A DNA stretch of 64,000 bases from Bacilli bacterium (GTDB taxonomy: Bacteria; Bacillota_I; Bacilli_A; RFN20; CAG-826): contig JAKSUZ010000002.1 of assembly GCA_024408505.1 (NCBI GenBank), forward strand, positions 1,337-65,336, given 5' to 3'. The notes under the pieces are model-generated. The model searched no databases, was not told where the DNA came from, and was given only the letters and a program-made list of their open reading frames with translations. Both the position numbers and the translations under genes were made by a program. Shown piece after piece: positions 18,173 through 40,829 of the stretch. Numbering within the stretch: the first letter of the stretch is position 1; each line of letters begins with the position of its first letter.

Positions 18173-19212
18173 ATAATAACCTCTACGATTTTCTCGCGAA
18201 TGTTAACTTCCTCGTCTTGTCGCATAGTGTCACAAAATTCACTATCTTCACAATCACCGAAAAACTTTTTCATATAAGTCATCATGAATTTACCTTTAAT
18301 GGTGAAATCAGAATGACTATGAACTTCTAGTTCAATATAACACGGGAGAAACTTTAATTCCGCTGCGCCTTTAAACGGTAACATCAAATTATGATAAGGA
18401 AGATAGTTTTCTTTTTGAATTAACGAACTATCGTGAGTAATTGGATCATAATAAATGGTCGGAGCGAAAGTAAAGTAACATTCATCCCCGTCTTTATTTA
18501 ACGTTAACGGGATATATCGATACATCGATTCTCCGATCGGAAAATCAGGAAACAAATTATATCGATCATAAAACGCGAAGCGTAATTCACCATTTAAGGT
18601 ATTATCTAATCCATTACGATATTTAAAACGTAAATAAGAAATATCTAAATCGTAATAAACTTCATTAACTCGTAAGTCCTCGAAATTTAAGAAACTAAAA
18701 GCATCTTCATAATGGTAATCCTGACTATGATCTAAATATGTGCTTTCTTTGATGTAGCCGGTTGAGAATTCTTGCCCATTCGTGGTTTCACTAATTTCAA
18801 AAGAGTCAATGGTCTTAGTGTTATACGCTAAGGTCGCACGATAAGTACCTTCGCCATTAATTCTTGCTTCGCATACAAAAGTAATTGGCGAATTATCATC
18901 AAGGTCACGAATATTAATTTCGTTACAACCATATAATAAGACACTTTGTCGAATAGAAAGAGATGTGATAGCGCTACTACCACAAAGATGTGAATTACCA
19001 TTTTGATCTATCCAGGTGTAGTTGTAGTAACATGATTTATCAACCTTACGAACAAGGATATCAATATAAGCTGATAATTTAAGCGTTCCTTTAGAAGGAT
19101 TTTCATCCGTAATCCCAAATGCCACAAACTGAATACTAGGTGCATTAGCGGTCGTCATACTACAACAAGTTATCGCCAATGGAAGAAAAATAAATCTAAG
19201 CACTTTTTTCAT
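18169..19212 (-). CDS. Secreted or lipid-anchored protein of unknown function
   Basis: MKKVLRFIFLPLAITCCS is a signal peptide with possible lipobox Cys. AAGGAG RBS 9 nt upstream. 347 aa, Cys-rich, with no motif I recognise. Confidence 0.6.
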   Translation of the reverse strand: MKKVLRFIFLPLAITCCSMTTANAPSIQFVAFGITDENPSKGTLKLSAYIDILVRKVDKSCYYNYTWIDQNGNSHLCGSSAITSLSIRQSVLLYGCNEINIRDLDDNSPITFVCEARINGEGTYRATLAYNTKTIDSFEISETTNGQEFSTGYIKESTYLDHSQDYHYEDAFSFLNFEDLRVNEVYYDLDISYLRFKYRNGLDNTLNGELRFAFYDRYNLFPDFPIGESMYRYIPLTLNKDGDECYFTFAPTIYYDPITHDSSLIQKENYLPYHNLMLPFKGAAELKFLPCYIELEVHSHSDFTIKGKFMMTYMKKFFGDCEDSEFCDTMRQDEEVNIREKIVEVII

Positions 19213-19567
19213 AGTTTAGTTCTCCTTCTTCATTGATGGCATGAGTTTTCTTCAAGTTTTCATAAAATAAATTAATCGCTTCTTCACGAAATCTCTTATA
19301 TTGGCGTTTGGTATAAAACTCTTCCCACCAAAACGAGTAGTTTTGATAGAAGAAATCACACTTAATGATTTTGCGAAGATGGTATTGCATCGCAAAATAC
19401 GCGGTCTCCACCGCTAAAATAAACTTCTCCCATGGTAGATGTCTACGGCACGCCGTAGATACTGCATCATAGAATTCTAGTTCTTGATTATAATCGGGGA
19501 AGAAATTGTTCACCCTTAGTAAATGGTGATAAGTCTCCGCCACATTTTGAATTGTTCTTTCTTTCAT
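19196..19567 (-). CDS. Small cytoplasmic protein, first gene of the unknown envelope operon
   Basis: ATG at 19567 is preceded by a GGAGG RBS (the track start at 19579 lies inside the RBS). Rich in aromatic residues, no TM segment, no recognised motif. Confidence 0.5.
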   Translation of the reverse strand: MKERTIQNVAETYHHLLRVNNFFPDYNQELEFYDAVSTACRRHLPWEKFILAVETAYFAMQYHLRKIIKCDFFYQNYSFWWEEFYTKRQYKRFREEAINLFYENLKKTHAINEEGELNYEKSA

Positions 19568-19629
19568 AATAGCCTCCATTTGGGAATATATCCCTTATTA
19601 GGTTATTAAAGAAAAAGGCCAAAAATCCT

Positions 19630-19720
19630 CACGGAGGCCTCTTTTATATTTATTCTAAATATAACTTTTTTTCGAGTTTTTGGAAAAGTTAACCAAATCA
19701 CGCATTAGTTAACTTTTTTT
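19630..19720 (-). promoter_or_regulatory. 91-nt conserved intergenic element, copy A (upstream of the unknown envelope operon)
   Basis: Aligns without gaps to 40367..40457. A 36-nt core (19666..19701) differs at one position. Two GTTAAC palindromes (19688-19693, 19708-19713) are spaced 14 nt apart. Confidence 0.6.
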
Positions 19721-20375
19721 ACAATAAGCTTAGTTGTTGATAGTGTAAATCCTTGACTGGCTTATAGGAAAAACGATATTCAGAATCGATTGGACCGAGC
19801 TCTTTTAATAGTCTTAAATGTTCCTTAGTGGGATAACCTTTATGCTCTTTAAATTTATATTTAGGATATTTCTTATCTAATTCATCCATATAACGATCAC
19901 GAGCGACTTTGGCTAAAATCGAAGCGGCTGCTACGGCTAACGATTTTGCATCGCCTTTCACTAATGGAATTACCTTACATGCCTCCATTGGTAATGGCAT
20001 TGCATCGGTAATTACCATATGGTATTTATGTTTTAAGTTATGTAGTGCAGTTATCATGGCTTTTCTACTAGCTTCATAGATGTTAATCTTATCGATCTCT
20101 TTAGCGCTTATAAAACTAACCGCATAACTAAGTGCATCCTTTTTAATAATTTTTTCTAACGCTTCGCGTTTCTTTGTGCTTAGTTTTTTAGAATCATTAA
20201 TATCTTCGTTTTTATAATCTTTAGGAAAAATCACCGCAGCCGCCACTACTGGACCCACAATCGGACCGCGACCGGCTTCATCCGTGCCAGCAATAAAGTT
20301 AATCGTTTTAGAATAAAATTTCTTTTCAAAATCTAACATATTAATCGAAGTAAAGCTTACCGAGTTTGCCATCAC
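19719..20375 (-). CDS. rnhB: Ribonuclease HII
   Basis: AGTDEAGRGPIVGPVVAAAV catalytic motif. An alternative start at ATG 20339 lies 1 nt after the rbgA stop. Confidence 0.9.
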   Translation of the reverse strand: MMANSVSFTSINMLDFEKKFYSKTINFIAGTDEAGRGPIVGPVVAAAVIFPKDYKNEDINDSKKLSTKKREALEKIIKKDALSYAVSFISAKEIDKINIYEASRKAMITALHNLKHKYHMVITDAMPLPMEACKVIPLVKGDAKSLAVAAASILAKVARDRYMDELDKKYPKYKFKEHKGYPTKEHLRLLKELGPIDSEYRFSYKPVKDLHYQQLSLL

Positions 20376-38556: not shown

Positions 38557-39213
38557 TTATCTTTTTTCATAATTTTTAACTTTCGCGACAATTAAAAAAT
38601 GTAATCGTTTGGGTTGCCCTTTTTTAATTAAAGAAAGTGAGGCTTTTAGAGTCGCACCAGTAGTAGATATATCATCCACAAATAATACTTTTTTATTATG
38701 AATCTTTTCTAAATTAGAAATTTCTAATCGATTAATAACTTTATTTCTTTCTTCTTTATTTAAATCAGATTGTTTATAGTTAGTTTTCTTTTTGATAATG
38801 GGAAGAATATTTAAATTTAATACCTTAAAAATCTCGATTACATGATTAAATCCTCGTTCTTGATCATCTCTTTCTTCACTAGGAGCAGGCACTAAGATAT
38901 AACCTCGATATTTTCTAGTTAATTCATCTTTAAAATAATTTAAAAATGCTTTCGCTAGTTCAATATCTCCACATCCTTTTAAGGTATAAATCTTTTCTTT
39001 CATATAATCCGAATAAGTAAATAAATATTCTCCACTTACTCCATTAATCTTTTCACTTTTTCTAATTGGAGAAAGTAAAGATAGACAACGATCACAAATA
39101 TTAATATCCGGATGAAGTAAAGCATGCAGATTATCAATCTTAATTTCGTTAAAGCACATTATGCAATACGATTTTTTATCTTGTAAGATAGGTGTTATCA
39201 AGCTTGATGGCAT
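38557..39213 (-). CDS. comFC: ComF-family phosphoribosyltransferase-like competence protein
   Basis: N-terminal CxxC...CxxC zinc ribbon and C-terminal PRTase motif VLFVDDISTTGATL. Overlaps comFA. Confidence 0.8.
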   Translation of the reverse strand: MPSSLITPILQDKKSYCIMCFNEIKIDNLHALLHPDINICDRCLSLLSPIRKSEKINGVSGEYLFTYSDYMKEKIYTLKGCGDIELAKAFLNYFKDELTRKYRGYILVPAPSEERDDQERGFNHVIEIFKVLNLNILPIIKKKTNYKQSDLNKEERNKVINRLEISNLEKIHNKKVLFVDDISTTGATLKASLSLIKKGQPKRLHFLIVAKVKNYEKR

Positions 39214-40333
39214 GAATGGCCTCCTTCATACTTTGACTTACTTTATTCGCTAAAAAAATCACTTCACCAGTTGGAGCGTCGATTTTTCTTCCTACTCGAC
39301 CAGAGATTTGAATTAAGACTCCACTATCATACATTTCATCATCAGCGTTATAGATAATGACTTGGACATCTTTGATTGTCACTCCTCTTTCTAATACTGA
39401 AGTAGTCACTAAATAGTCATATTTATGTTTTTTAAAATCGGTAATAATCTCTTTCCGGTCTAAACACTTTGAGTGCACAAAATGACCTTTCTTAACAAAT
39501 ATTTTTAAAATCGAATAAATGGATTCCGCTAGTGAAATAGTAGGCGCAAAGATTAATAGTGGTTTTTTATTTTTTCGATATTCTTTAATCTTTTTGATTA
39601 AATAAAAAATTTTAAAATAGCCAATCCGAATCACACTGATTGGCTCAGGTAAAGCGTGACGATGATAACGAGTATGAAGTTCTAAGATTGGTAAATTATT
39701 CTTTTTAAAATCATCCACAATATCTTTCGGTGGAGTTGCGCTCATTAAGATATATGAACCTTTAAGTGATTTTTTAAATAAATTAATTAATAAACGATTA
39801 TCACGAAAAGGAAAAGCATCGATTTCATCTAAGATTAATAAATCAAAATAATTTGTGTATCGATATAGTTGATGGGTGGTGAGAATAATAATATCGCCAG
39901 TGAGTTGATCAGTATGTCCGCCATATACGCATACACTCTTACGATTAGGGAACGCAGATATAAAACGTGGAAATAAATCAATCGCAACTTCTCTTCGAGG
40001 TACGGCAAATCCTATGTGCATGCCGTGCGAAAGGGCATAACTAACGACTCCATACACTAGCTCGGTCTTCCCGCTTCCACACACCGCATGCACTAGAGTT
40101 GATTTATTGTCTTTAAAATTCTCTAGTAATCTAGTCGAAATTTTGCCTTGCTCAGGTGATAGTGGATAAGTTAGACTTGCGCTAGTGTCTTCATCGTCTA
40201 CTTTGTAGCTATTTACCTCCCTTCCTTGAAATGAGATGCAAAGACGACAATATGTTTGATTATTCTTCATGCCAAAATAGCGTGGATCTGTGTTTCCGCA
40301 TCTTGGACATACATATATCGCATTACTTCCCAT
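39176..40333 (-). CDS. comFA: Competence DEAD/DEAH-box helicase ComFA
   Basis: N-terminal zinc finger CPRCGN...CRLC, Walker A CGSGKTE, DEID box, MSATPP and helicase C motifs. Confidence 0.8.
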   Translation of the reverse strand: MGSNAIYVCPRCGNTDPRYFGMKNNQTYCRLCISFQGREVNSYKVDDEDTSASLTYPLSPEQGKISTRLLENFKDNKSTLVHAVCGSGKTELVYGVVSYALSHGMHIGFAVPRREVAIDLFPRFISAFPNRKSVCVYGGHTDQLTGDIIILTTHQLYRYTNYFDLLILDEIDAFPFRDNRLLINLFKKSLKGSYILMSATPPKDIVDDFKKNNLPILELHTRYHRHALPEPISVIRIGYFKIFYLIKKIKEYRKNKKPLLIFAPTISLAESIYSILKIFVKKGHFVHSKCLDRKEIITDFKKHKYDYLVTTSVLERGVTIKDVQVIIYNADDEMYDSGVLIQISGRVGRKIDAPTGEVIFLANKVSQSMKEAIHAIKLDNTYLTR

Positions 40334-40366
40334 ATTAGTTAATACGGAAAATATTCAATTTTTCCA

Positions 40367-40457
40367 CACGGAGGTGTGTGATATTTATACAAGTATAAAT
40401 ATATTTTTTTCGAGTTTTTGAAAAAGTTAACCAAATCACTGACTTGTTAACTTTTTT
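40367..40457 (-). promoter_or_regulatory. 91-nt conserved intergenic element, copy B (upstream of comFA-comFC)
   Basis: Gap-free alignment to 19630..19720. The 36-nt core is 40404..40439. GTTAAC palindromes at 40426-40431 and 40446-40451 are spaced 14 nt apart. Confidence 0.6.
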
Positions 40458-40595
40458 AGCCAAGACTTACTTGCTAAGTCATAATAATGGTAGAAGGCAG
40501 CAAGGCTTGAGTATTGTACTCCCGTTCCTGTCTTCTTTTTTTGTTTAGAGCATTGTAATATTAATTTATTAAGTTATAATGATTTCGAAATAAAT

Positions 40596-40829
40596 ATGAA
40601 AGAAACAATTACCCTATCCATAAGCAAAGAAGAAAAAGCGCTTTTAATGAAAAAAGCTAAAGCGCAACGCCTTTCATTGACTTCATATATACGTTTAGTG
40701 TCTTTAAATCAAGCAAGAAAGGATTTAAATGATATCAAATTAAATAATACCGACTGGAATTTATTAATCAGCGAATTAGATAATCCCAGTAAACCTAACG
40801 AAAAATTAATTAAACTTTTCGCTAAATAA
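40596..40829 (+). CDS. TacA/DUF1778-like ribbon-helix-helix antitoxin (no GNAT toxin downstream)
   Basis: The pattern ITLSISKEEKALLMKKAKAQRLSLTSYI...WNLLISELDNPSKPNEKLIKLF parallels DUF1778 antitoxins (an RHH strand, then a C-terminal L..LD.P....L..L tail). Confidence 0.55.
   Translation: MKETITLSISKEEKALLMKKAKAQRLSLTSYIRLVSLNQARKDLNDIKLNNTDWNLLISELDNPSKPNEKLIKLFAK

What the first reader, a model, noticed from the sequence alone, without database searches (positions are those of the whole stretch)
40367..40457. Copy B of the shared element marks a putative competence-type regulon at comFA-comFC
- ComFA and ComFC are dedicated DNA-uptake proteins in Bacillota. Their promoters are normally controlled by a competence-specific factor (ComK boxes or SigX/ComX cin-boxes; established knowledge).
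- I see neither a ComK-type AAAA-N5-TTTT pair nor a TACGAATA cin-box here.
- The only conspicuous conserved sequence is the 91-nt element shared with the 19567 operon.
- The inference is that this organism uses a different competence control element. If so, the unknown six-gene operon belongs to the same regulon.
Basis: inference. Interest (0 to 1): 0.6.

Follow-up and report, generated by a model that had tools for sequence, protein, structure and literature searches.

The report
Shared promoter module of DNA-uptake regulon
The 91-base repeat in front of comFA is part of a roughly 125-150-base control cassette that this small uncultured gut bacterium and its close relatives also place in front of their other DNA-uptake and DNA-processing genes, so it probably marks a new kind of competence-type regulon, although nobody has yet seen it work.

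Summary
The repeat is real. Window 40367-40457 matches 19630-19720 at 81% over 91 nt (E 1.5e-18). It is not a two-copy element. It is the upstream two-thirds of a module that runs to the comFA ATG (40334-40457, minus strand).

- **Copies.** The genome (1.23 Mb, 87% complete) holds 9 copies with the GTTAAC hairpin ("type I", including A and B). It holds at least 12 more with only the core ("type II"). Every intact copy points at a downstream gene.
- **Core.** The core is an AT palindrome (TATATTTA..TAAATATA), then 10-11 nt, GYGAG, 19-21 nt, TAAKTA, about 7 nt, then the ribosome-binding site.
- **Genes served.** The core precedes comFA-comFC, comEA-comEC, dprA, radC and ssb. That is 5 of 6 recognisable competence-type operons (P about 4e-7). 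It also precedes pcrA-ligA, the recO/dnaG/rpoD operon, dnaD-dnaI, the six-gene membrane operon and a family of small coiled-coil genes.
- **Conservation.** These pairings recur in sister species. The module was not found outside the genus.
- **Regulators.** There is no cin-box, K-box, comK or ComGA. A fast-evolving SigH-like sigma at the canonical sigH locus is the only candidate alternative sigma.

The regulon-like distribution is shown; the promoter assignment, the sigma factor and competence itself are inferred. No transcript data could be obtained.

The parts
40334..40457 (-). Module copy B, full extent: from the GTTAAC hairpin to the base before the comFA ATG.
   Evidence: Alignment of 9 type I copies and of 41 copies from 5 species. 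nhmmer hit at C12:41660-41752 = window 40324-40416.
40420..40457 (-). Hairpin 1. AAAAAAGTTAAC-N14-GGTTAACTTTTT, an A-run/stem/T-run shaped like a bidirectional terminator or insulator. Present only in type I copies.
   Evidence: GTTAAC-N8-20-GTTAAC occurs 11 times in the genome, 9 of them in type I modules. Fold energies are -8.5 to -13.6 kcal/mol on either strand. The 3' arm TTTGGTTAAC is nearly invariant and the 5' arm is more variable.
40404..40419 (-). Linker AAAAACTCGAAAAAAA, specific to type I. CTCGAAAA matches the cin-box TACGAATA at only 5 of 8 positions.
   Evidence: Conserved as (A/G)YTCGAAAAAAA in type I copies of G000 and G001. No cin-box within 1 mismatch.
40381..40403 (-). AT palindrome TATATTTA-(7 nt)-TATAAATAT, shared by type I and type II modules. 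The 3' arm is in fixed register with the downstream blocks.
   Evidence: Both arms are nearly invariant in 41 copies. Inner spacing varies from 2 to 10 nt. The distance from the 3' arm to GYGAG is 10-11 nt in 34 of 41 copies. Symmetrical T>C / A>G changes occur in two G006 copies.
40365..40369 (-). GYGAG block (GTGTG in copy B), the candidate -35-like element.
   Evidence: GTGAG/GCGAG/GTGAA in 41 copies and GCGTC/GCGTT in G004. It lies 19 nt (26 copies), 20 nt (7) or 21 nt (4) upstream of the TAAKTA block, whatever the sequence in between.
40339..40344 (-). TAAKTA block (TATTAA in copy B), the candidate -10-like element. It lies 5 nt upstream of the comFA ATG, and comFA has no Shine-Dalgarno sequence.
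   Evidence: The same arrangement occurs in G001 comFA (TATTAG-ATAAT-ATGGG).
39176..40333 (-). comFA: DEAD/ResIII helicase, 385 aa, with an N-terminal CxxC.
   Evidence: Pfam DEAD 1.1e-16, Helicase_C 5.6e-15, ResIII 1.7e-13. Orthologues in 38 of 41 family genomes.
38557..39213 (-). comFC: ComF-family phosphoribosyltransferase-like protein, 218 aa. It overlaps comFA, and secA follows after 50 nt.
   Evidence: Pfam Pribosyltran 2.5e-10. NCBIfam TIGR00201 comF 1.2e-18, below the curated cutoff.
19580..19720 (-). Module copy A. It starts right after the rnhB stop (19719-19721) and precedes the six-gene operon. Its parts are hairpin 1 at 19683-19720, palindrome at 19645-19664, GTGAG at 19628-19632, TAATAA at 19603-19608, a GGGATATATTCCC hairpin, then SD GGAGG and the likely start at 19567.
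   Evidence: Orthologous copies lie upstream of the same operon in G001 and G003.

Best explanation
Copy B is the comFA copy of a genus-specific cis-regulatory cassette of about 125-150 nt. The cassette is a promoter plus a short leader, with an upstream insulator hairpin in the 'type I' version. It has been placed in front of the DNA-uptake and DNA-processing operons and about a dozen other units. These operons therefore form one co-regulated, competence-type regulon.

**Working parts.** They are most likely the blocks held in fixed register: TAAATAT-N10-11-GYGAG-N19-TAAKTA-N7-(A)GG.

**Favoured reading (inferred).**
- GYGAG and TAAKTA are the -35-like and -10-like elements of a non-sigma-A promoter.
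- Transcription starts just before the AGGAGG ribosome-binding site. At comFA it starts at the ATG itself, giving a leaderless mRNA.
- The AT palindrome and A-tract act as an upstream (UP-element or activator/repressor) site.
- Hairpin 1 stops read-through from neighbouring genes.
- The recognising factor is most likely the only alternative sigma found. This is a fast-evolving 206-aa SigH-like protein at the conserved cysS-rlmB-sigH locus. It would be analogous to sigma-H/ComX control of com genes in non-sporulating Bacillota.

**Shown:** the repeat family, its anatomy, its strict orientation, its gene associations and their conservation across species.

**Inferred:** promoter function, which blocks are -35 and -10, the sigma factor, and that the output is natural competence.
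For: **Copy number and orientation.**
- 9 full copies and at least 21 core copies in 1.23 Mb.
- All copies with an intact 3' end are oriented toward a downstream ORF whose start lies 2-265 nt from the module end.

**Gene content.** The core sits upstream of:
- comFA-comFC (copy B);
- comEA-comEC-holA (C18);
- dprA-topA-xerC (C14);
- 58aa-radC (C1:8619);
- rpsF-ssb-rpsR (C3);
- trx-pcrA-ligA (C23);
- C39-ybeY-era-recO-glyQS-dnaG-rpoD (C1:65854);
- small gene-dnaD-dnaI (C34);
- the six-gene operon (copy A).

Enrichment is 5 of 6 competence-type operons against 21 of about 505 upstream regions, P about 4e-7.

**Conservation of the pairings.**
- G001: comFA, six-gene operon, C39 operon, radC, ssb, pcrA, ABC.
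- G006: dprA, comEA-EC, radC, and small-pgsA-cinA, the genes that precede recA in G000.
- G002: radC.
- G003: six-gene operon.
- G004: dprA and comFA keep the palindrome and the N19 spacing although the blocks have changed (GCGTC/GCGTT, TATTTA/TATATA). G004 proteins are only 61-66% identical.

**Promoter-like geometry.**
- GYGAG to TAAKTA is 19 nt in 26 copies, 20 in 7 and 21 in 4.
- The 3' palindrome arm to GYGAG is 10-11 nt in 34 of 41 copies.
- The palindrome's inner spacing floats between 2 and 10 nt.
- No canonical sigma-70 promoter sits at one conserved position in all copies. Canonical ones do exist elsewhere in the genome: TTGTAA-N16-TATAAT at tacA and TTGCGT-N17-TACAAT at rpsF.
- In variants with a leader, a small hairpin always begins at the AAGGG that follows TAAKTA-N7. 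That is where the start predicted by this reading falls.
- comFA lacks an SD in G000 and G001, and its ATG sits at that same point.

**Regulators.**
- No ComK, no cin-box or K-box, and only RpoD plus one weak sigma hit.
- That ORF aligns full-length to SigH-family NCBIfam models, below their cutoffs.
- It follows cysS-rlmB.
- It is present in 6 of 7 genomes of the genus at 41-64% identity.

**Literature.**
- Sigma-H-like factors activate comFA, comFC, comEA, comEC, comG and dprA in Lactobacillus sakei (PMC3364868).
- In Mycoplasma genitalium, an alternative sigma with a long-spacer promoter (TTGTCA-N18/19-ATTWAT) drives a recombination regulon. That regulon includes a DnaG-like gene, MG_390 (putative protein/peptide secretion) and small unknown proteins (PMC4446450).
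Against: - No transcript, start-site or expression data.
- The module also precedes essential housekeeping operons and many small orphan genes. It could therefore be a general-purpose promoter.
- cinA-recA has no module in this genome.
- The genome lacks ComGA/T2SSE and CoiA, so real transformability is uncertain.
- The proposed -35 and -10 do not match the Bacillus sigma-H consensus. AGGAWWW is seen only in G000, and GAAT is never seen.
- The TAAKTA region resembles the AT-rich loops of ordinary terminator/RBS hairpins upstream of dprA and comFA in other genera that have no module.
- Other promoter placements are possible:
  - a -10 in the palindrome arm (TATAAA/TAAATAT);
  - TTGTTA-N16-18-GATAAT, found in 16 of 41 copies.
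- About 100 nt of conservation is far more than a sigma factor needs. Copies within a genome resemble each other more than orthologous copies do. This points to duplication or gene conversion as well as selection.
- The 'competence operon' set used for the enrichment test was defined by me after seeing the data.
Confidence: 0.5

Rival explanations
1. Portable housekeeping cassette. The module is an ordinary sigma-A promoter, or a terminator/promoter/RBS unit, that spreads between intergenic regions by duplication and homologous recombination. It spreads together with small cassettes: the coiled-coil genes and the X/Y peptide leaders. Genes behind it simply get a good promoter, and there is no competence-specific control.
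For: - Housekeeping operons carry it.
- Modules flank small coiled-coil genes on both sides, as [module]-small gene-[module]-gene at dprA, ssb, pcrA and ABC.
- Y cassettes show no differences across the aligned leader in three G000 loci.
- Copies within a genome are more alike than orthologous copies.
- Sigma-70-like hexamers (TTGTTA-N16-18-GATAAT) occur at a fixed position in 16 of 41 copies. TATAAA lies in the palindrome arm.
- Relatives outside the genus run dprA and comFA with no dedicated promoter at all.
Against: - The set of host operons is strongly non-random.
- The same operons keep the module in species down to 61-66% protein identity.
- No sigma-70-type site is common to all copies.
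- The rpsF operon keeps its own canonical promoter downstream of the module, so the module is an addition and not the housekeeping promoter.
Confidence: 0.25
2. Operator model. The AT palindrome is the key element. It is bound by a repressor or activator (an SOS-like or stress regulator) that overlaps a -35-less sigma-A promoter whose -10 is the 3' arm (TATAAA/TAAATAT). GYGAG and TAAKTA then lie in the 5' UTR.
For: - The palindrome arms are the most invariant part of all 41 copies and also of G004.
- Symmetrical double changes (TACATTTA..TAAATGTA) occur in two G006 copies.
- The 3' arm contains -10-like hexamers.
- The regulon is rich in DNA repair and replication genes, as an SOS-type regulon would be.
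Against: - The arm-to-arm spacing varies from 2 to 10 nt, which is awkward for a rigid dimeric binder.
- No -35 lies at a fixed distance in type II copies.
- No candidate regulator was identified.
- This model does not explain the constant 19-nt spacing further downstream.
Confidence: 0.15
3. RNA-level leader. The conserved 50-60 nt between palindrome and start codon is a 5' UTR switch. GUGAGG, CCUC and the GGAGG ribosome-binding site can pair in alternative ways, either as a small hairpin plus U-run or as SD sequestration. The regulon would then be controlled by attenuation or translation.
For: - Some copies have clear hairpin-plus-T-run structures with changed arm sequences: GTGAAC/GTTCAC, AGGTGA/TCACCT, AGTGA/TCACT.
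- In one copy C>U changes keep G-U pairs (C1: UCUUGGUGAGGA).
- CCTC(TT) can pair with (AA)GGAGG.
- Relatives use CCTCC-loop-GGAGG hairpins at the same genes.
Against: - On average the hairpin is only slightly more stable than shuffled sequence (-4.1 vs -2.3 kcal/mol).
- There is no sense/antisense asymmetry (-4.1 vs -3.7).
- It is absent in G004 and in several copies.
- No Rfam family matches.
Confidence: 0.08
4. Selfish intergenic repeat (MITE/BOX-like) with no function for the host.
For: Multi-copy, intergenic and palindrome-rich. An IS3-family element inserts into it.
Against: - All copies with an intact 3' end are co-oriented with the downstream gene and abut its ribosome-binding site.
- No terminal inverted repeats or target duplications delimit it.
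- Orthologous positions are conserved across species.
Confidence: 0.02

Closest known systems
ComX/SigX late-competence regulon of streptococci (cin-box / com-box TACGAATA)
   Same: One short-lived alternative sigma marks comEA/EC, comFA/FC, dprA, ssbB and radC with a common promoter signature. As I recall, it also covers peptide/bacteriocin genes and dnaG-rpoD. The gene set overlaps strikingly with the module's set.
   Different: - No TACGAATA.
- The shared sequence here is about 100-150 nt with a palindrome, not an 8-mer.
- No ComG pilus genes.
- It also covers housekeeping operons and a multi-copy small-protein family.
Sigma-H-dependent competence genes of non-sporulating Bacillota (Lactobacillus sakei, PMC3364868; Staphylococcus aureus SigH, PMC3486894)
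   Same: A SigH-like sigma at the conserved sigH locus exists here. In those organisms that factor switches on comF, comE, comG and dprA.
   Different: - The Bacillus sigma-H consensus as I recall it (RNAGGAWWW-N11-12-RNNGAATWW) is not met. AGGAWWW occurs only in G000 copies, and there is no GAAT -10.
- The link between the sigma and the module is untested.
Sigma-20 (MG428) recombination/HGT regulon of Mycoplasma genitalium, promoter TTGTCA-N18/19-ATTWAT (PMC4446450, PMC6105099)
   Same: - A genome-reduced, Mollicutes-type organism.
- A bipartite promoter with an unusually long spacer.
- A regulon that mixes DNA-recombination genes, a DnaG-like gene, a putative peptide-secretion gene (MG_390; here a C39-peptidase-domain protein) and small proteins of unknown function.
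- The first gene of operon A hits the MG284/MPN403 family domain (36.7 bits, cutoff 37.3).
   Different: - The hexamers differ.
- Here the regulon is centred on com genes (comE, comF, dprA), which are not in the validated sigma-20 set. recA is not included in G000.
- Homology between the two sigmas was not tested.
BOX/RUP-type intergenic repeats of Streptococcus pneumoniae and 'mobile promoters' (from my own knowledge)
   Same: Modular, multi-copy intergenic sequences with hairpins, found near competence genes. They were once proposed to coordinate expression and are spread by duplication.
   Different: Strict co-orientation with the downstream gene, a fixed position at its ribosome-binding site, and orthologous conservation. 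BOX elements are scattered in both orientations.

Membership tests
ComX/SigX cin-box promoter | TACGAATA box at -10 upstream of late com genes | tested here: not met
   No match within 1 mismatch in the 262-nt comFA upstream region on either strand. The nearest resemblance, CTCGAAAA in the type I linker, matches 5 of 8 and is absent from type II copies at comEA and dprA.
ComX/SigX cin-box promoter | Common signature upstream of comE, comF, dprA, ssb and radC operons | tested here: met
   The core module is upstream of all five in G000 and upstream of orthologues in G001, G002, G004 and G006.
ComK-dependent (K-box) promoter | Paired AAAA-N5-TTTT boxes, and a comK gene | tested here: not met
   No K-box in the region. 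Pfam ComK gives only a 13.7-bit sub-threshold hit inside a 1075-aa ORF. The genome is 87% complete.
Sigma-H-type promoter (Bacillus consensus) | -35 RNAGGAWWW and -10 RNNGAATWW, 11-12 nt apart | tested here: not met
   GAGGAWTT is present in G000 copies but replaced by GAGAAT, GAGTCA, GAACAA or GCGTC in sister species. No GAAT occurs at the -10 position.
Sigma-H-type promoter (Bacillus consensus) | A sigH orthologue is present in the genome | tested here: met
   A 206-aa ORF at C15:13987-14607(-) lies after cysS and rlmB (TIGR00186, 240.8 bits). Its best NCBIfam hits are full-length SigH-family models, below their cutoffs (3.6e-8). It is present in 6 of 7 genus genomes.
Mycoplasma sigma-20 promoter | TTGTCA/TTGGCR-N18/19-ATTWAT | tested here: not met
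   TTGGTT in hairpin 1 is followed by A-runs at +18/19. ATTTAT lies at +25-26. Type II copies have no such -35 (inspection of the and alignments).
Intrinsic terminator (hairpin 1) | Stable stem-loop followed by a T-run | tested here: inconclusive
   A-run/GTTAAC(C) stem/T-run, -8.5 to -13.6 kcal/mol on both strands. It is not called by the consensus scan, which needs at least 3 G-C pairs and a loop of at most 8 nt. It also occurs where the upstream gene is divergent.
MITE/BOX-like selfish repeat | Both orientations, variable position relative to genes, terminal repeats | tested here: not met
   All copies with an intact 3' end are co-oriented with, and adjacent to, a downstream start codon.
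Any described RNA family (Rfam 15) | Covariance-model match | tested here: not met
   No relevant hit at E up to 1 in seven loci, which include copies A and B and the comEC and dprA loci.

The most novel reading that the evidence does not exclude
A genus of uncultured, Mollicutes-like gut Bacilli has built a new competence / DNA-processing regulon. It did so by planting one long promoter cassette, read by its fast-evolving SigH-like sigma, in front of comF, comE, dprA, radC, ssb, DNA-repair and replication operons. The cassette also precedes a peptide/C39 pair and an ATPase-less six-gene membrane operon, which would replace the missing ComG pseudopilus. The cassettes also serve as portable homology through which small genes spread: the coiled-coil family and the 20-aa hydrophobic-peptide leaders X and Y.
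Probability: 0.25. Interest if true: 0.75.

Novelty: new variant of a known kind. Interest (0 to 1): 0.6.

Why it matters
- **A testable regulon.** Competence regulons are known in detail only for a few cultured Bacillota. How reduced, wall-less-type gut Bacilli control their conserved com genes is unknown, and so is whether they use them. A sequence signature that ties comF, comE, dprA, radC and ssb together gives a concrete, testable regulon. It names a candidate sigma factor.
- **New candidate genes.** The signature nominates unknown genes for roles in DNA uptake: the six-gene membrane operon, the small coiled-coil proteins, and the C39/peptide pair. This organism lacks the ComG pilus.
- **How a regulon is assembled.** In sister genera, dprA and comFA sit behind housekeeping genes with only a terminator/RBS hairpin. 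Within one genus, a single cassette has been copied to about 20 sites.

Tried and rejected
- **Known RNA families.** None matched.
- **Known competence signals.** No cin-box or K-box and no ComK.
- **Other competence genes.** ComGA/T2SSE is absent and CoiA is absent. recA is present, but behind pgsA-cinA with no module.
- **Wider distribution.**
  - BLAST of the module against 40 relatives finds it only in the genus.
  - The pattern scan of GTDB genomes finds only genus-mates plus chance hits.
  - Two metagenome scans gave zero true copies.
- **Hairpin 3 as a universal RNA structure.** GAGG/CCTC plus a T-run is rejected as universal. It is only marginally better than shuffles and has no strand asymmetry.
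- **A single canonical sigma-70 promoter common to all copies.** Not found.
- **Hidden extra copies.** A loose tripartite pattern found 24 sites. About 16 are the known modules, and shuffles give about 10.
- **Function of the small coiled-coil family and of the 160-aa and 184-aa module-driven proteins.** Nothing informative in Pfam, PHROGs, NCBIfam or PDB sequences.
- **MG284/MPN403 literature.** Nothing usable.
- **Peptides or antisense RNA encoded by the element itself.** No conserved ORF (inspection).

Full report
**1. Observation**

The window is C12:1337-65336 of a 1.23-Mb, 53-contig assembly that is 33.7% G+C and 87% complete.

- Window 40367-40457 and 19630-19720 are copies of one element. 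A 64-nt core is 86% identical. All 91 nt are 81% identical, E 1.5e-18.
- Copy B lies between comFA (39176-40333, minus) and a divergent TacA-like antitoxin gene (40596-40829). comFA is followed by comFC (38557-39213) and secA.
- Copy A starts at the stop codon of rnhB and precedes the six-gene operon.

**2. The element is part of a larger, multi-copy module**

A whole-genome search finds 9 copies of the 91-nt element. Aligned in the direction of the downstream gene, the homology runs on to the ribosome-binding site.

The anatomy, 5' to 3' on the gene strand, is:
- hairpin 1, AAAAAGTTAAC(C)-loop-(G)GTTAACTTTTT;
- a linker, CTCGAAAAAAA;
- an AT palindrome, TATATTTA..TAAATAT(A);
- GYGAG, preceded in this version by CCTCC;
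- a T-rich stretch;
- TAAKTA, within GTTAAKTAAC;
- CTAATA(A)GG, which in the simplest copies is the AGGAGG Shine-Dalgarno 5-9 nt before the ATG.

A profile built from the part downstream of the linker finds at least 21 copies. The extra ones ("type II") lack hairpin 1 and the linker. The GTTAAC hairpin occurs nowhere else in the genome apart from two chance sites.

In window coordinates, copy B spans 40334-40457 and copy A spans 19580-19720. A third type I copy lies 125 nt beyond the window end.

**3. What lies behind the copies**

By Pfam, NCBIfam and sequence inspection, the downstream units in G000 are:
- comFA-comFC(-secA);
- comEA-comEC-holA;
- dprA-topA-...-xerC;
- a 58-aa peptide followed by radC-rplU-...-obg;
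- rpsF-ssb-rpsR;
- a thioredoxin-like lipoprotein followed by pcrA-ligA;
- a C39-peptidase-domain membrane protein followed by ybeY-cdd-era-recO-glyQS-dnaG-rpoD;
- a small gene followed by a DnaD/DnaB_2-like gene and a gene I read as dnaI-like (no Pfam hit);
- a MacB-like ABC transporter;
- the six-gene operon, whose first gene hits the MG284/MPN403 family domain just under the cutoff;
- 160-aa and 184-aa orphans;
- about ten paralogous coiled-coil genes of 75-113 aa that end in ..RLDYIVxANNLKDLP.

The canonical late-competence operons recognisable in this genome are comE, comF, dprA, radC, ssb and cinA-recA. Five of these six carry the module. recA does not. comG, coiA and comK are absent.

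By a crude gene count, 505 upstream regions could host a promoter. The chance of 5 of 6 hits with 21 modules is about 4e-7. The set was chosen after seeing the data, so this P value is indicative only.

**4. Conservation**

The module is found in genus-mates only:
- G001 = MAG Horse_feces345;
- G002 = SGB_4354;
- G003 = UBA1719;
- G006;
- G004, in diverged form.

Nothing genuine turned up in 34 other genera of the family or order, in GTDB or in JGI metagenomes.

Orthologous pairings are kept:
- G001: comFA, six-gene operon, C39 operon, radC, ssb, pcrA, ABC.
- G006: dprA, comEA-comEC, radC, and small-pgsA-cinA, the genes that precede recA in G000.
- G002: radC.
- G003: six-gene operon.
- G004: dprA and comFA. 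Its proteins are 61-66% identical to G000.

In other genera of the family, dprA simply follows rnhB and comFA follows rpiB. They are separated only by a CCTCC-loop-GGAGG-T-run hairpin, and the comFA ATG sits in the 3' arm of that hairpin. The module is therefore a genus-level innovation laid over an older arrangement.

**5. Which parts look functional**

Across 41 distinct copies from five species, plus two from G004:
- The palindrome arms are nearly invariant, but their spacing floats between 2 and 10 nt.
- The 3' arm, GYGAG and TAAKTA are in fixed register. The first gap is 10-11 nt in 34 of 41 copies. The second is 19 nt in 26 copies, 20 in 7 and 21 in 4.
- The sequence between GYGAG and TAAKTA varies. 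It forms a good hairpin only in some copies, and on average it is barely better than shuffled sequence.
- In G004 the blocks have changed (GCGTC/GCGTT; TATTTA/TATATA) while the spacing stays at 19.

Two conserved blocks 19 nt apart, with a variable spacer, are what a bipartite promoter looks like.

A start 5-9 nt after TAAKTA would have three consequences:
- It would give mRNAs that begin right at the AGGAGG.
- In leader-bearing variants, the mRNA would begin at the first base of a small GGG..CCC hairpin.
- At comFA it would begin at the ATG itself. That would explain why comFA has no Shine-Dalgarno sequence in G000 and G001.

No canonical sigma-70 promoter is common to all copies, although the genome does use canonical ones elsewhere.

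This reading is an inference. Two alternatives remain:
- a -35-less sigma-A promoter whose -10 is the 3' palindrome arm;
- TTGTTA-N16-18-GATAAT, which fits 16 of 41 copies, mainly those with X/Y leaders.

**6. Candidate factor**

The only sigma-70-family genes detected are rpoD and a weak hit. That hit is a 206-aa ORF directly after cysS and rlmB, which is the sigH locus of Bacillota. It aligns full-length to SigH-family models, but below their cutoffs.

It is present in 6 of 7 genomes of the genus; the exception is only 61% complete. It diverges fast: 41-64% identity, against 61-80% for DprA. That would fit co-evolution with the changing GYGAG block.

Two published cases are relevant:
- Sigma-H-like factors switch on com genes in non-sporulating Bacillota (PMC3364868, PMC3486894).
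- In Mycoplasma genitalium, an alternative sigma with an 18/19-nt spacer promoter drives a recombination regulon. That regulon contains a DnaG-like gene, a putative peptide-secretion gene and small unknown proteins (PMC4446450).

The link between this sigma and this module is untested here.

**7.

Hairpin 1 and the linker are the type I-specific half. Hairpin 1 has the shape of a bidirectional terminator.
- At copy A it sits exactly at the rnhB stop.
- At copy B it would stop antisense read-through from sua5-rpiB across the inserted TacA locus.

It also occurs next to divergent genes. Its 3' arm is more conserved than its 5' arm. A protein-binding role therefore cannot be excluded.

**8. Rivals**

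- A portable housekeeping cassette spread by recombination. This is supported by tandem [module]-small gene-[module] arrangements, near-identical X/Y cassettes and within-genome similarity.
- A palindrome-operator model.
- An RNA-leader model.
- A selfish repeat. This is disfavoured by strict co-orientation.

None of these removes the main point: the com genes share one conserved cis-element.

**9. Verdict**

The element does mark a regulon-like set that contains the other com genes and the six-gene operon. Three qualifications apply: the shared part is the core and not the GTTAAC hairpin; the set is broader than competence; and function is unproven.

It is a new variant of a known kind, namely regulon-specific competence promoters.

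Earlier notes of this scan on copy A and on the six-gene operon reached a compatible but narrower view. They were used as leads only.

Noticed in passing
G000 C14:11790-12055 (before dprA); C18:3855-4122 minus strand (before comEA); C1:8690-8955 (before 58aa-radC); C50:12900-13150, C23:37325-37600 and C3:33850-34100 (leader Y). None is in the window.: Two related cassettes of about 240 nt (X and Y) sit between the module and the gene's own RBS.
- Neither has an Rfam hit.
- X folds strongly (-70 kcal/mol). A long 5'-3' helix buries an internal GGAGG.
- Each carries a conserved 20-21-aa hydrophobic ORF. X encodes MSDLIILLMLLYLIVSELSR and Y encodes MLDTILLMVVLTLLIELISRR.
- They look like type-I-toxin-like or small membrane-peptide genes.
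- They are absent at the same loci in G006, so they are insertions.
   Followed up: partly
G000 C23:86917-86982, C50:12499-12539 and C14:11350-11382; G006 loci L093/L112: An IS3-family insertion sequence is inserted at the same point of the module, a few bases after GYGAG. This is seen at several loci and in two species, which suggests site-specific targeting of the module.
   Followed up: partly
Loci L125-L153 (dprA) and L155-L183 (comFA) from other genera of the family: - Across the family, genes are joined by CCTCC-(TATTTATWAATA)-GGAGG-TTTTT hairpins. In these the 3' arm doubles as the Shine-Dalgarno sequence.
- At comFA, the ATGGG start and the following TTT codons lie in the 3' arm and T-run of the rpiB terminator.
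- This gives the conserved N-terminus MG.FF.
   Followed up: partly
G000 C1:8956-9132 (58 aa) and C1:64564-65778 (404 aa): - A 58-aa peptide with a double-glycine-like leader (MQKLTDQELANVKVG) precedes radC.
- A C39-peptidase-domain membrane protein with no ABC ATPase heads the ybeY-era-recO-dnaG-rpoD operon.
- Both are module-driven.
- They could form a peptide signal or bacteriocin pair within the regulon.
   Followed up: no
About ten loci in G000, e.g. C34:54682-55014, C53:25205-25546, C23:19593-19925 and C12:65601-65846 (just past the window end): A paralogous family of coiled-coil proteins of 75-113 aa ends in ..RLDYIVxANNLKDLPK. Each gene has a module upstream and often another downstream. 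There are no informative hits in Pfam, PHROGs or PDB sequences.
   Followed up: partly
G000 C15:13987-14607 (minus strand): The SigH-like sigma at the cysS-rlmB locus is only 41-64% identical within the genus. That is much more diverged than DprA or ComFA.
   Followed up: partly
window 40458-40545 (+): Two hairpins ending in a T-run (sRNA-like or terminator-like) lie between module B and the tacA promoter TTGTAA-N16-TATAAT (40553-40580). There is no Rfam hit.
   Followed up: no
window 19196-19579 (-): The first gene of the six-gene operon matches the C-terminal domain of the Mycoplasma MG284/MPN403 family (36.7 bits, cutoff 37.3). The operon is followed by an ACP gene.
   Followed up: no
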